In this document: positions 881 to 12,000 of the stretch, one piece after another | Position numbering within the stretch: the stretch's first letter is position 1 | Layout: each line of letters opens with the position of its first letter | Assembly (NCBI GenBank): GCA_964016885.1 | Contig: OZ024748.1 | Location: 28,582,001-28,646,000, forward strand | DNA length: 64,000 nt | Reading direction: 5' to 3' | Source: Eledone cirrhosa | Lineage: Eukaryota | Notes under the pieces: generated by a model | The model's database searches: none | What the model saw: the letters and a program-made list of their open reading frames with translations, nothing else | What the model was told of the DNA's origin: nothing | Program-made: the position numbers and the translations under genes

Positions 881-1066
881 GGCGACCTACATAGTAAATC
901 GTATCATCGTGAGCTCCGCAAAGGTTTGTTATTTCAGTTATTTAAAATTGCCATTTATGGAAAATTTTTATTTTATTGAAAAGGACACTCAAAAATATTG
1001 GGGCCTTGAGCCCAAAATTTAAACTTTTTATAATTATCAAACAAAAGATTTTTTCTTTGAAAAATA

Positions 1067-3056
1067 ATGGATGACCCAGATTCACTCCTTCCTCACAATC
1101 CAACACCTCACACCGATACCACCATTGTAAATATTGCTACGTTTGCCAACACTGGAATTGTAAGCAGTAGCAATATTTTAAATTTGTCTCAGGCAGACGT
1201 TCATTTCCCGCCATTACCAAGGACTGCAGATGTTAAAGCCGCCACCACCACCACCACCACCACCACCACCACCGCGACAACCCCCCCCCCCCCCCTCACC
1301 ACCACCACCACAGCGACAACAGAAACAAAAGAAAAATAATAAATTAACTCATGATATCGAAATGAATTCAACCAAAATGAACTCTTCCACACCGAACACC
1401 ACTGACGCCACCACCACCACAACTGAAACTAAAATTAACAATAGCAAAAATAACGATAATAACAACAGCAACAATAAAATTAAGAAAACTACCCTGAGTT
1501 TTGCCAAAGTAGCAAAAACGTGCGAAGCGATCCAGGTAACTCAGGAAGAATTAGACGAAGCCAAAGGAATGGTAAAGAAAGATGGGTACAGGGTCAGCCC
1601 CCCCCTAATAAAATGGAGCATGTCGCCTATGCACCGTGTCTTATCGAACAATTAACATAAAATCGCGCCGAGTGGAGCGGGCATCCGAGTCCCAAATCCA
1701 AAAAGCTTTGGGACATGTGTGGGCAAAAAAAACCCACATCAGACGTGGGCAGAAGTATGGAACCGTGGACGTGTTCTTTGAAACACCACAGGAGGCCAGA
1801 GAACACTCCGTGGCCCCATTAAAAAGTGACGACTTCACACTCATCCCAAGCTATTGTGGCCAGAGACTTGTGAAGATCAGGGTGACCCACGTTCCACCGG
1901 CCATCGAAATTCCCTGGCTAATGGCCGCCGTCCTCGCCGGCATCGAGGCCAACACCAAAATAATAGAAATAGCAAAAGAAAAGCAGGAGAACTGGTCCGG
2001 ATCTGGGATGGAGCTCCTGATCCAAGCGGACCATAAAAGCATTGAGGAGATCCCAGAGGTAATAGACCTCACTGACGGCAGCCACCTCACCGTAATCGTC
2101 GAGGGCAGAAGACCTAGGTGTGTCGTTTGTGGTGAAGGAACCCACCTAAGGGCTTTTTGCCCTCAGGCTAAAAGGTTGAGGCCAGCTCTCTTACCCACCC
2201 CAGTGACTCAACCATCAACACCACCAGCAGCAGAAATGGCAGCAACAACAGAAGCAACTGTAACAGCAACAACCCCAGCAACAGTAGCAAAACCAACACC
2301 ACCACCACCCAACGCCCCAGAACTAGCACCAGCGCCTACACCATCCACCACGCCACAACCAAAACCAACGCCTGGGGAGGATTTTCCCCGGCTTATCGCA
2401 ACTGGAGACAGATTGTGACGACGAGGAGTGGGAAACGGTATCAGGAAAAAAGAAAAAAAGAAACCAAAAAAGAAAAGAATTCTCTGCCCTCCCCCTCCAA
2501 AAACAAAATACAGAGGGAAACAAATAAATTAGCAAGCAAGAAAGTTAAGACGGATATGCCACCATCCACATCAGCATAAACAACCCCATCACCACAAACA
2601 CCAACACCATCACCATCATTAACCCCAACACCACCATCACCAACACCACAAAAGTCACCAAAAAGCGTAACAGAAACAAACCCACAACAAACGCAAACAA
2701 AACAAAACAACCAAAACGATACACACTACACAGCATTAAATTTGAACAACAACTAATTATTACACTACATGCAACCCAACACCAGCATCACAGAAAAAGA
2801 CTACACAACAACCCAAAAGTTCACACCACCTCCACACATACAAATCACTCGCATCACACAGAAAACGTACACGACACTAAAACAAAAATTCCCCAAAGAC
2901 ATCGGAGACTTCCAACAAACACTCTCCAGGAGGATTTATAAGGACATCCTTCCAGAGGAGGCCACAAGCAGTGAAAAGGATGGACAAACCATCCTTCCTC
3001 AACGAGAAGTAAGGTTAGTGGTCTTTCCCCATCTTTTCCACTCCATTTCAACATGA
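1067..3056 (+). pseudogene. Tx1 ORF1 (nucleic-acid-binding, zinc knuckle), frameshifted
   Basis: Pieces 1067-1339, 1230-1655, 1636-2418 and 2769-3056 are collinear with copy-2 ORF1. CX2CX4HX4C motif CVVCGEGTHLRAFC; Pro/Thr linker; breaks near poly-C runs (~1281-1295, ~1598-1605) and again at ~2390-2770. Confidence 0.8.
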
Positions 3057-9028: not shown

Positions 9029-9063
9029 GTGGTCTTTCCCATCTTTTCCACTCTATTTTAAAC

Positions 9064-12000
9064 ATGACCTCACTCAGAATAGGCAGCATAAATGCGCGTG
9101 GCTTGGGGTCGTCATGGAAGCAGGGTCACCTGCTCAACGACCTCAGGTCACTAAACATAGATGTAGTGGCCATCAGCGAGACCAGAATCTCCGAAGCACG
9201 GGCCTTCGCACCGATCTTCGGCGGCTTCGATGTGTACGCATCTCCCAGCCGTCCTGGATCCGGTGGAGGAGTTGCTGTGCTTTTTCGGAGAGGTTTGGAT
9301 CTCGCCATACGGGCCATCTTCCTGGACCCAGAGGGTAAGCTGGTGGTGCTGGACGTGACCAGCGGAGACGGGCAAGCTTTCAGGCTAGTGGCCGTCTATG
9401 CCCCGACAGGAGCAGGGCGGCCTGATTTCTTCCGGCGTCTGGAGACCTTTCTTGGAACGTCCCGCTCTTTAGTGTTAGTGGGCGACTGGAACGGGATCTT
9501 AGATGCACGCTGGGACTGTGTGGGATTAGCGGATAGGGGTGGAGGGTGCAAGAGCCTCACCAACCTGCTCAGGCGTTTTGAACTGTCTGACAGGTACCGA
9601 TTGGATTTCCCGAATGTGCCAATGTGGACTTGGACAAACCGCATAGGGTCATCCAGATCATATCTAGATAGAGTATTTTGTAGGGAAATAGATAGGTCTA
9701 GCATAGGCTGTCCACAATTCAAGATAGTCAGCTACACGGACCACAAATTCGTGATCTGTGTGCTTGACTTAGATAGGCTTCATAGACGAGGACCCGGCTA
9801 CTGGAAGCTAAACGCGTCCTTACCAGCGCGCAAGGCCTACAGAGACCGGATTAGCGAACTAGTTAAGCGGGCGTTGACGGGGGCCATCGTCAACAACAAG
9901 TGGTGGTTTGCTCTGAAAAGAGCGATTAGAATAGAATCGATTAGGTTTAGTAAGGCTTTAGCAATAGAGAAAAATAGAGCAGAGGGAGAACTAGTTAGAA
10001 AATTAGACGAGGCGCTTAGCAAAGGCATTGCGACCGACGTGCTTGCGGCGAAATTGGCCCTTGACCAATTCTTCAATGCAAAGCACGAAGGCTGCGTTGT
10101 CAGAGCTAGGGTGCGTGCTCTCAGACACGAGGGGACGAAAGCCGTTCAATGGGCCCGAGTTGCGGAGGCGCGTCGTGGCAACAAAGCCACGATCCGGTCT
10201 TTGGTGGACCACGACGGGCGCATGCTACTCGATCCCGGGCAAATGTGTGAAGCTTTTCAGCGACACTTCGCTCAGCTGTTCGGGGGCAGCGGGGGGCCGG
10301 GTAGAGGGATGGACTTTAGTGTCTACCTCGACGGACTGCCGCGGCTCTCGGCCACTGAGGCGAAGTGTTGCGAAAAGCCGATAACAGCCGCTGAAGTACG
10401 GGAGGCAATGACTGGCTGCACAAGGGGTAAATCGCCTGGTTTGGATGGTCTGCCCTATGAACTTTACGTACAGATGCCAGACTTGTTCGGAGGCCTCTTG
10501 GCGGACGTCTACTGCAACTGGCAACAGAACGGGAGAATTCCCAGTTCTGTGAGCCGAGGAGCGGTGGCACTGCTGAGAAAGGATCCGAACAAGGGGGATA
10601 ACATAGACAATTTCCGGCCCATAACTCTGCTAAACACAGAGTTTAAGATTTTGGCCAAGGTGCTAGCAAAGAGGTTGGCGCTTGTCGTTGGTGGTCTGGT
10701 GGGAGAGGCGCAGACATGCGCCATTCCCGACAGATCCATCCACGACAACCTCCACCTCATGCGATACATCGTAGAGAGGGTAGCTAGGGAACCTGGCACG
10801 GGTGGGTCCTTGATCAATTTAGATCAGTCGAAAGCTTTCGATAGGGTCGACCATCGTTACCTAGCGGCAGTCCTGAGGGCGGCTGGCTTTGGGCCCGTCT
10901 TCAGAGGCTGGATCGCTGCCATGCACAGCGACATCTGCTCTGTGGTGAGAGTGAACGGTCACCTGTCGGAACCGTTCAACATCATGCGCTCGGTCCGCCA
11001 AGGATGTCCCCTCTCGTCCCTCTTGTACGTATTGACTCTCGAGCCATTACTGCACAAACTGGAGACGTTGAGGGGAGTCCCGCGCGAACTAGGATGCGGA
11101 AGATCCGTGTCAGCATATGCGGACGATGTCACCGTAGTGGTGTCGAACGCCAAACACATCGAGGCGATCGGCACTACACTAAGAGAATACGAAGCGGTGA
11201 CAGGAGCAATGATCAACCAGGAAAAGTCAGTGGGCCTGCAGCTCGGCACCTGGAGAGGCAGGTCCATGCCGTCCAACAGCGTCGTCGGGCGCTGGACGGA
11301 CGGACCGGTTAAATTGCTAGGGGTCTGGTTCGGTCCGGACCTCCAGACGGACAAAAACTGGGACGAGGTGACGAGCAGGGTGGCTTCTCTCACCCAGAAA
11401 TGGGCGGAGAGGAAGCTATCCCTGAAAGGTCGAGCGGAGGTGGCTAACGCGTACATCGCGTCTGTCATCTGCTACCGCCTAACCGTCGTACCTTGTCCTA
11501 AGCCTCGCCTGACTGCGCTGGAGCGTTTGCTCTTTCGCTTTTTGTGGAAGGGACGTGCTCCGATGGTCAGGCGGTCCATCTGTTGTCAACACCCGCTACG
11601 TGGAGGGCTGGGCATGCCGTGGCTGATGATGCGCAGGCACGCGCTCAGGCTACGACATCTCCACCTCTTCCTCGACGGTGATCAGGTGTGGTCGCCGTTT
11701 GCTAGACGCGTTTTTCCCCAGCTCGTTTCCTTGACGGAGCTGCAGTCCTGGGTCAAGCGAAGACCGAGAGGGAGCGCCTGGAGACTGGAATGTCTTCAGG
11801 CGCTCACAGCCCTCGACCAATCGGGCAATGTGATCGGTGGAAACTCCACCTCGGCGTTCTATAGAGGATTAGTGGAGGGGAAGAGCGACGACGTACTTGG
11901 GGAAACTCTAGGCGTCGACGAAAATCAACTAGCCAATCTCTTCGGAAGAACTTTCGGGCCGGGGCCTATGGACAACTTCCAGAAATCTCTGGCCTGGCAG

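What the first reader, a model, noticed from the sequence alone, without database searches (positions are those of the whole stretch)
881..9064. 5'UTR/ORF1 module swap: two divergent ORF1s on an almost identical ORF2
Seen: ORF2 and 3'UTR differ by only a few percent (2 differences in the first 68 nt). ORF1 is only about 50/75 identical aa in its best block (SYRT..YCGQ), with unalignable N-termini (Thr/Pro vs Asn/Ser tracts) and largely unalignable 5'UTRs. Similarity rises at ~2970/8980 and becomes near-complete at the ORF2 ATG. Inference: recent recombination, template switching or gene conversion at the ORF1/ORF2 junction, giving one enzyme with interchangeable promoter+RNP cassettes. 5' replacement is known in vertebrate L1s; seeing both chimeras adjacent suggests the arrays themselves may promote the exchange.
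Basis: partly seen in the sequence, partly recalled or inferred. Interest (0 to 1): 0.75.

Follow-up and report, generated by a model that had tools for sequence, protein, structure and literature searches.

The report
Hybrid retrotransposon with a borrowed ORF1
The second of these two neighbouring jumping genes belongs to a hybrid family, now in over two thousand copies, that carries the front half (likely promoter plus RNA-binding protein gene) of a third family on the enzyme gene of the first; the halves were likely fused where the two parent families lay stacked end to end, possibly by RNA splicing, which would be a new route to a known kind of swap.

Summary
The swap is real, but it did not happen between these two copies. 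Copy A (881-6690) and copy B (6721-12750) belong to two genome-wide families of an L1/Tx1-type LINE that inserts in (ATT)n. ORF1 silent sites are saturated between them (pS 0.76-0.80); ORF2 dS is 0.07-0.10. Only B is chimeric. I found its donor, family E: all 57 pattern hits were read, and B matches E up to 8981 and A from 8982. ORF1 trees join B+E, ORF2 trees join A+B, and AU tests reject the alternatives. The B joint has 2198 exact matches, so it is no misassembly. It is out of homologous register and falls exactly on E's AAG|GTAAGT donor motif and after a CAG of A (chance 0.3-1.8%). Yet I found no other splice-shaped joint and no RNA. Microhomology fusion about 0.5, splicing about 0.4. Module exchange is known from mouse L1, and splice-born subfamilies from SVA. 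This scan already reported the same joint on other DNA (e1-9503403).

The parts
845..880 (+). (ATT)12 target repeat in front of copy A
   Evidence: family-wide ATT flanks
881..1066 (+). 5'UTR of family A (likely internal promoter; inferred)
   Evidence: same 5' end in many dispersed copies
1067..3017 (+). ORF1 of family A, broken in this copy; RRM-like core plus one CCHC knuckle; family stop codon position 3015-3017 is mutated here
2969..2972 (+). CAG and the first base (2972) of the A-derived part of family B; poor pyrimidine tract upstream
3011..3019 (+). splice-donor-like motif at the end of ORF1-A (one base changed in this copy)
3053..6449 (+). ORF2 of copy A (endonuclease, RT, zinc-binding), broken
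   Evidence: 96.2% aa identity to B ORF2
6450..6690 (+). 3'UTR of copy A with AATAAA
6691..6720 (+). (ATT)n spacer: tail of A and target of B
6721..8981 (+). E-derived module of family B: 5'UTR (6721-6932) and ORF1 body; the first ~170 nt are closer to the main E subtype than to old B copies (second, smaller swap; inferred)
6933..9028 (+). ORF1 of family B (698 aa in intact copy L105; one frameshift near 7790-7800 here); two RRM-like domains predicted, CCHC knuckle at 8048-8089
8980..8990 (+). chimeric joint 8981|8982: E up to its donor site, then A; AG shared; one extra base in the next 8 nt puts A's C-terminal tail in frame
8982..9063 (+). A-derived ORF1 tail, donor-like motif (GT at 9025) overlapping the stop, pyrimidine-rich spacer
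9064..12483 (+). ORF2 of copy B, open, 1139 aa: Exo_endo_phos, RVT_1, zf-RVT; A-derived
12484..12782 (+). 3'UTR with AATAAA and (ATT)12 tail of copy B

Best explanation
Copy B belongs to a hybrid LINE family made of the 5'UTR and ORF1 of family E joined at one fixed base to the ORF1 tail, spacer, ORF2 and 3'UTR of family A, and the join likely arose once, when an incomplete A copy was likely fused through a short shared sequence to an E copy lying just upstream. Shown: both parents exist, the joint, the tree conflict, ATT targeting, E-then-A tandems and a graded series of early B copies. Inferred: an A RNA was reverse-transcribed at the (ATT)n tail of an E copy (or switched template to E RNA), the cDNA stopped about 80 nt before the ORF2 start, and its end was joined to the end of E's ORF1 with loss of E's ORF2. 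The product kept a promoter, a whole ORF1 and a whole ORF2, gained one base that restores A's C-terminal tail, and then outgrew its donor. Copy B in the window is a young member that later landed in the tail of an older A copy.
For: Donor family: 57 exact hits, 57 of 57 read and all continue into E's own spacer. E's front is 84-93% like B in 23 of the first 25, its ORF2 only 79-85%. Closest donor copy L250 against old B copy L289: front 96.8%, ORF2 82.4%; L289 against three A ORF2s 95.5-95.8%. Trees: ORF1 B+E 100/100, A+B rejected p=5e-5; ORF2 A+B 100/100, B+E rejected p=2e-62, B nested in A. ORF2+3'UTR diversity within A 4.4%, A-B 4.2%. Earliest B forms (L092, L245, L274) carry an almost unchanged A tail. 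Same joint base in 4 of 4 outside runs. The joining process is visible here: 8 out-of-register fusions of a cut element to a 5'-truncated one (L060, L092, L242, L245, L258, L274, L284, L287), none at GT..AG, and 2 of the 57 E copies independently switch to A-type ORF2 (L256, L258). One large deletion starts exactly at B's donor with 3-nt microhomology and no AG (L275). Mechanism class proposed for L1 in PMC3600994 section 11 and PMC4120745 section 13.
Against: The joint sits exactly on the only perfect donor 9-mer in E's 2.3-kb front and after a CAG; among possible joints with at least 2 nt of microhomology only 0.3-1.8% do both. Microhomology at the joint is just 2 nt, while a 10-nt in-register match nearby was not used. 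The variant route (crossover at a 5-nt match, later 5-nt slip) predicts an intermediate seen in 0 of 57 E hits. No joint without the extra base was seen (0 of 36 examined, out of 2198), so the founding product itself was not observed.
Confidence: 0.5

Rival explanations
1. Splice-born family: a read-through RNA from an E-then-A tandem (or trans-splicing) was spliced from E's AAG|GTAAGT donor to the last CAG before A's own donor, removing E's ORF2 and A's front, and A's ORF2 protein then copied this RNA into the genome.
For: Joint exactly at the donor and after CAG, chance 0.3-1.8%. The donor motif is kept at the ORF1 end of all five families in two reading frames. E-then-A tandems exist (4 of 14 E tails). 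The CAG used is the last YAG before A's donor, which fits exon definition (inference). Precedents: SVA_F1 and a chimpanzee SVA subfamily (PMC6139936, abstract); exon-L1 chimeras ending at donors (bioRxiv 10.1101/2025.02.02.635956, passages).
Against: Acceptor is weak: 48% pyrimidine, 3 AGs upstream. No other spliced retrocopy found: 0 for ORF1-to-3'UTR, 0 for loss of the 52-54 nt stretch, 0 for other sequence after the E/D donor; the 9 hits were point variants; none of the 13 hits after the A/B donor is a real AG joint (that pattern sees about half of random joints). 1 of 143 screened joints had GT..AG and it is a 5-nt slip.
Confidence: 0.4
2. Homologous recombination or gene conversion between neighbouring copies in an array.
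For: In-register switches do occur: L256 (E to A between 9231 and 9282 equivalents) and L222 (A to D near the ORF2 start); A ORF2s and B fronts are mosaics; young B took about 170 nt of 5'UTR from the main E subtype.
Against: The founding joint is out of register by over 40 nt and duplicates the donor region; the window's A front is not B's source; both families are dispersed.
Confidence: 0.07
3. No swap: ORF1 simply evolves much faster than ORF2, or one junction is a misassembly.
For: Within B, ORF1 silent sites do differ about 2-3 times more than ORF2 between young and old copies (dS 0.07-0.15 versus 0.04-0.05).
Against: A threefold rate cannot give saturation against dS 0.09; tree conflict with both parents in hand; 2198 exact joints; bridged in outside runs.
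Confidence: 0.01

Closest known systems
Recombinant mouse L1 families Tf, Gf_I, Gf_II (PMC3600994; passages and section 11 read)
   Same: A younger, successful family takes 5'UTR+ORF1 from one family and ORF2+3'UTR from another, with the break near the ORF2 start; further exchanges along the element.
   Different: There the breakpoints are described inside the 5' part of ORF2 between related families. Here the ORF1s are about 52% identical with saturated silent sites, the joint is out of register inside the ORF1 end, and sequence-specific stacking puts the parents side by side.
ORF1 shuffling among Jockey/CR1/L2 LINEs (PMC4120745; passages and section 13 read)
   Same: Proposes that a 5'-truncated element with whole ORF2 lands behind another element's ORF1 and yields a hybrid.
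   Different: That is inferred from deep phylogeny; here both parents, the base of the joint and early intermediates are in one genome.
SVA_F1 (MAST2) and chimpanzee STK40-SVA subfamilies (PMC6139936, abstract); RAP1GDS1-L1PA2 and exon-L1 chimeras (bioRxiv 10.1101/2025.02.02.635956, passages); SpIREs (PMC5860796, abstract)
   Same: Splicing joins a new 5' part to a retroelement, and the product is retrotransposed.
   Different: Those capture host exons or promoters, or are dead ends; here a whole protein gene of another autonomous LINE would have been swapped in. Splicing is not shown here.
Tx1-clade target-specific LINEs Kibi (TC)n and Koshi (TTC)n (PMC4494074, passages)
   Same: Two ORFs, AP endonuclease plus RT, insertion into a microsatellite.
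   Different: Target is (ATT)n; clade membership was not tested against named Tx1 references.

Membership tests
L1-group non-LTR retrotransposon | ORF2 with AP endonuclease, RT and C-terminal zinc-binding region | tested here: met
   Pfam PF03372, PF00078, PF13966 above cut-offs
L1-group non-LTR retrotransposon | ORF2 closer to L1 ORF2p than to R2 proteins | tested here: met
   PDB: L1 ORF2p E 3.5e-52 over 850 aa; R2 best 1.3e-21; only these two types were among the 10 hits
L1-group non-LTR retrotransposon | separate ORF1, no LTRs, 3' AATAAA and simple-repeat tail, 5'-truncated copies | tested here: met
Tx1 clade | RT phylogeny inside the Tx1 clade | not testable with these tools
   33 homologues found, none named; cluster members unnamed but for one 'hypothetical protein'; the Tx1 label is recalled and also used by earlier notes of this scan
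Tx1 clade | target-sequence preference (over 20% of flanks, criterion in PMC4494074) | tested here: met
   ATT repeat before 77 of 78 full 5' ends and after 92 of 97 3' ends in fetched loci
Type I ORF1 (RRM upstream of CCHC; PMC4120745) | RRM domain(s) followed by a CCHC knuckle | tested here: met
   CX2CX4HX4C in A, B, C; model from 3 sequences, pLDDT 70, best matches are tandem-RRM proteins, E 5e-4 to 1e-3, TM 0.24-0.44, so modest; Pfam found neither domain
Inter-family recombinant LINE (as mouse Tf/Gf) | conflicting trees for the two parts, both parents identified | tested here: met
Splice-born subfamily (as SVA_F1) | joint exactly at a 5' splice donor and a 3' AG | tested here: met
Splice-born subfamily (as SVA_F1) | credible acceptor context (pyrimidine tract, no upstream AG) | tested here: not met
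   48% pyrimidine, 3 AGs within 22 nt
Splice-born subfamily (as SVA_F1) | spliced RNA or other spliced retrocopies using the donor | tested here: inconclusive
   no spliced retrocopy; RNA could not be examined

The most novel reading that the evidence does not exclude
The spliceosome built a new autonomous LINE family: a conserved splice donor at the end of ORF1 plus self-stacking in (ATT)n repeats lets read-through RNAs splice one family's promoter and ORF1 onto the next family's ORF2, a built-in ORF1-shuffling route, and the product (2198 exact joints against 57 for its donor) became the dominant young family.
Probability: 0.4. Interest if true: 0.7.

Novelty: new variant of a known kind. 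Interest (0 to 1): 0.48.

Why it matters
How LINEs acquire new 5' ends and ORF1s is argued from old mosaics, and three mechanisms are still open (PMC3600994, section 11). Here both parents, the joint to the base, tandem precursors and a ladder of early copies lie in one genome, so the mechanisms can be tested directly. It also shows that an ORF2 can found a large family with an ORF1 only about 52% identical to its former partner. If the joint was made by splicing, that would be a protein-gene swap between autonomous LINEs by the spliceosome, which I did not find in 8 paper searches. If made by microhomology, it is a clean example of a mechanism already proposed.

Tried and rejected
1. Crossover at the ORF2 start codon, my first reading of 7-9 B-specific differences in 8994-9059: rejected; early B copies show these arose after the swap. 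2. Family D as donor: its ORF1 is only about 64-78% like B; E fits. 3. ORF2 removed by splicing to the CAG in the 3'UTR: 0 genomic copies (one mismatch allowed), and the E and D tails shown lack that CAG; L256 joins one base before it, from a non-GT site. 4. A 52-54 nt mini-intron that would fuse ORF1 to ORF2 in frame in A/B: 0 copies lacking it (for A, B, D; for E; none in fetched loci). Exact patterns miss decayed copies. 5. Intermediate with E's donor followed by A's tail: 0 of 57. 6. RNA: no RNA holder listed; the one guessed-RNA run gave only scraps. 8. Named Tx1 homologues: none. Rows left out: L121 (interrupted); L117, L232, L234 from the ORF1 tree (anchor not found). The joint screen is threshold-bound, is mostly small deletions, and missed L245 and L275. 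Target-site duplications cannot be read inside (ATT)n. Supplements of papers were not opened; the bioRxiv supplement (closed) may list L1-L1 splice chimeras.
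Full report
WHAT IS THERE. The window holds two head-to-tail LINE copies, A (881-6690) and B (6721-12750), each between (ATT)n runs. B's ORF2 (9064-12483, 1139 aa) is open and carries endonuclease, RT and zinc-binding domains; its best solved relatives are human L1 ORF2p. The ORF1 core has a CCHC knuckle and a predicted tandem-RRM fold (modest scores). The Tx1 label is recalled; no named reference confirmed it. The copies are 95.1% identical from 2970/8980 onward and 36-69% per 100 columns before.

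BOTH FRONTS ARE FAMILIES. The B junction region gave at least 40 perfect matches, and 30 of 30 fetched loci were 99.1-99.9% like window B. The A ORF1 core gave 40 matches at 97-100% among 3451 candidates. Of 30 loci chosen by ORF2 alone, 16 had the A front and 14 the B front. Over ORF2+3'UTR, diversity is 4.4% within 20 A copies, 1.9% within 21 B copies and 4.2% between them. ORF1-core silent sites are saturated between A and B (pS 0.76-0.80, 52% aa identity, 5 of 5 A copies), while ORF2 dS is 0.07-0.10 (8 of 8). The elements sit in ATT repeats (77 of 78 5' ends, 92 of 97 3' ends) and often behind a relative: 10 of 24 A heads, 5 of 16 B heads, 2 of 7 E heads where a head was found (of 30, 20, 18 loci). 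Stacking, not local exchange, explains the adjacency (inference).

THE DONOR. Following divergent neighbours gave family C (ORF2 75-77%) and family D (ORF2 80-85%), whose ORF1 end resembles B's up to a GTAAGT motif. A pattern for 'B-type ORF1 end followed by GTAA' found 57 exact places. All 57 were read and form family E: front 84-93% like B (23 of the first 25 had a long match), own spacer, ORF2 79-85% like B; 2 of 57 switch later to A-type ORF2. B against E: ORF1 dS 0.17-0.31, ORF2 dS 0.52-0.54 (7 of 7). Copy L250 is 96.8% like old B copy L289 in the front and 82.4% in ORF2, while L289 is 95.5-95.8% like three A ORF2s. Trees agree: ORF1 (28 rows) joins B+E at 100/100 and rejects A+B (p=5e-5); ORF2 (31 rows) joins A+B at 100/100, nests B in A and rejects B+E (p=2e-62). 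So B is the recombinant.

THE JOINT. B follows E to 8981 and A from 8982 (A's 2972). E continues there with GTAAGT; A has CAG just before. Only AG is shared. The joint is out of register: B keeps A's last ORF1 codons, A's own donor-like motif and spacer. All 36 B-type joints examined have one base more than the 38 A copies in the next few letters, which puts A's C-terminal peptide in frame. The earliest forms (L092, L245, L274) have an almost pure A tail, and later differences accumulate stepwise. The joint has 2198 exact matches (exact matching favours young copies over E's 57). Contigs of 4 of 4 outside runs (3 samples, 2 studies) leave E at this same base with the B sequence, and two contigs bridge it.

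HOW IT WAS JOINED. Two readings are close. For fusion at reverse transcription or insertion: I saw 8 out-of-register fusions of a cut element to a 5'-truncated one, none at GT..AG, in-register family switches (L222, L256; L255), and one large deletion starting exactly at B's donor by microhomology with no AG (L275). In L258 the E remainder is not found behind the inserted A, as expected if it was lost at insertion. For splicing: the joint lies on one of only 2 perfect donor 9-mers in the 6-kb E copy scanned; by enumeration only 0.3-1.8% of joints with at least 2 nt microhomology would hit the donor and follow an AG; the motif is kept in all five families; E-then-A tandems exist (4 of 14 E tails, one of them picked as an A locus). 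Against splicing: a weak acceptor and no other spliced retrocopy in five pattern searches or among 143 screened joints, bar a 5-nt slip. Against microhomology: only 2 nt shared, and the intermediate of a 5-nt-match-plus-slip route is absent from 57 of 57 E hits, though that slip occurs in 2 of 43 A copies. RNA could not be examined. My odds: fusion 0.5, splicing 0.4; the chimera itself is close to certain.

MORE SHUFFLING. Young B's first 170 nt match the main E subtype (94-98%) better than old B (91-93%), while the next 250 nt do the reverse (84-89% against 93-94%). D carries a C-like 5'UTR. A ORF2s are mosaics.

WHAT IS KNOWN. Mouse Tf and Gf families are ORF1/ORF2 recombinants, and three mechanisms are discussed (PMC3600994; passages, section 11). 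A 5'-truncated LINE landing behind another's ORF1 was proposed for ORF1 shuffling (PMC4120745; passages, section 13). PMC5381506 (passages) found 5'UTR replacement in mammals but hardly in lizard, frog and fish. Splicing founded SVA subfamilies (PMC6139936, abstract) and occurs in exon-L1 chimeras (bioRxiv 10.1101/2025.02.02.635956, passages); spliced L1s are mostly dead ends (PMC5860796, abstract). Microsatellite-targeting Tx1 elements are known (PMC4494074, passages); active L1-Tx1 families are listed for an octopus (PMC13282606, passages), which may or may not be related to this host. Eight searches gave no report of a splice-site ORF1 swap between autonomous LINEs.

EARLIER NOTES OF THIS SCAN. 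Looked up after my analysis. e1-9503403 describes what appears to be the same hybrid joint and prefers splicing; several notes describe the donor motif and ATT stacking. They are unchecked, agree with what I measured and did not move my odds.

VERDICT. Observation confirmed, interpretation partly supported; new variant of a known kind; interest 0.48.

Noticed in passing
window 9022-9077 and 3011-3066; L134, L137, L197-L241: Donor-like GTAAGT, pyrimidine tract and an AG in ORF2 codon 5 frame a 52-54 nt stretch across the ORF1 stop and ORF2 start in all five families; removal would be in frame for A/B, out of frame for C/D/E. No copy lacking it was found.
   Followed up: partly
window 6721-6890: Young B's first 170 nt are closer to the main E subtype than to old B: a second, small 5'UTR exchange.
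   Followed up: partly
L222 (1000-7020), L240, L241: Family D has a C-like 5'UTR; L222 is a D-type element with an old A-type ORF1 inside, a reciprocal kind of chimera. Whether it amplified was not tested.
   Followed up: partly
window 7430-8100 versus 9064-12483; L096-L103: Between young and old B copies silent divergence is 2-3 times higher in ORF1 than in ORF2, and about 9 changes piled up in the 80 nt after the joint; unexplained.
   Followed up: no
G000 C1 55.43-55.45 Mb; L141-L146: Young B copies form pure tandem stacks at about 6.05-kb spacing, up to five in a row.
   Followed up: no
L091, L092, L126, L129: A different RT-encoding element lies beside these LINEs in the opposite orientation, next to AAT/AAC runs; by recall it looks R4/Dong-like, untested.
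   Followed up: no
window 1-420: 3' end with a tail motif and ATT run resembling this group's, but no match to families B-E at E<1e-12; source unknown.
   Followed up: partly
window 440-870, 13230-13430, 14390-14580, 15600-15770: Several copies of a short SINE-like repeat ending in ATT runs.
   Followed up: no
window 12933-13260 (+) and 51271-51498 (-): Short 3' fragments related to family C.
   Followed up: partly
window 26843-32225, 33818-41156, 55416-56258: Satellite arrays: 27-mer x197, 50-mer x151, 21-mer x40; the 1689-aa Val-rich 'ORF' at 26772-31841 is a by-product of the first.
   Followed up: no
window 49195-49845 (-): 216-aa frame that reads like a fragment of another reverse transcriptase (by recall, not scanned).
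   Followed up: no
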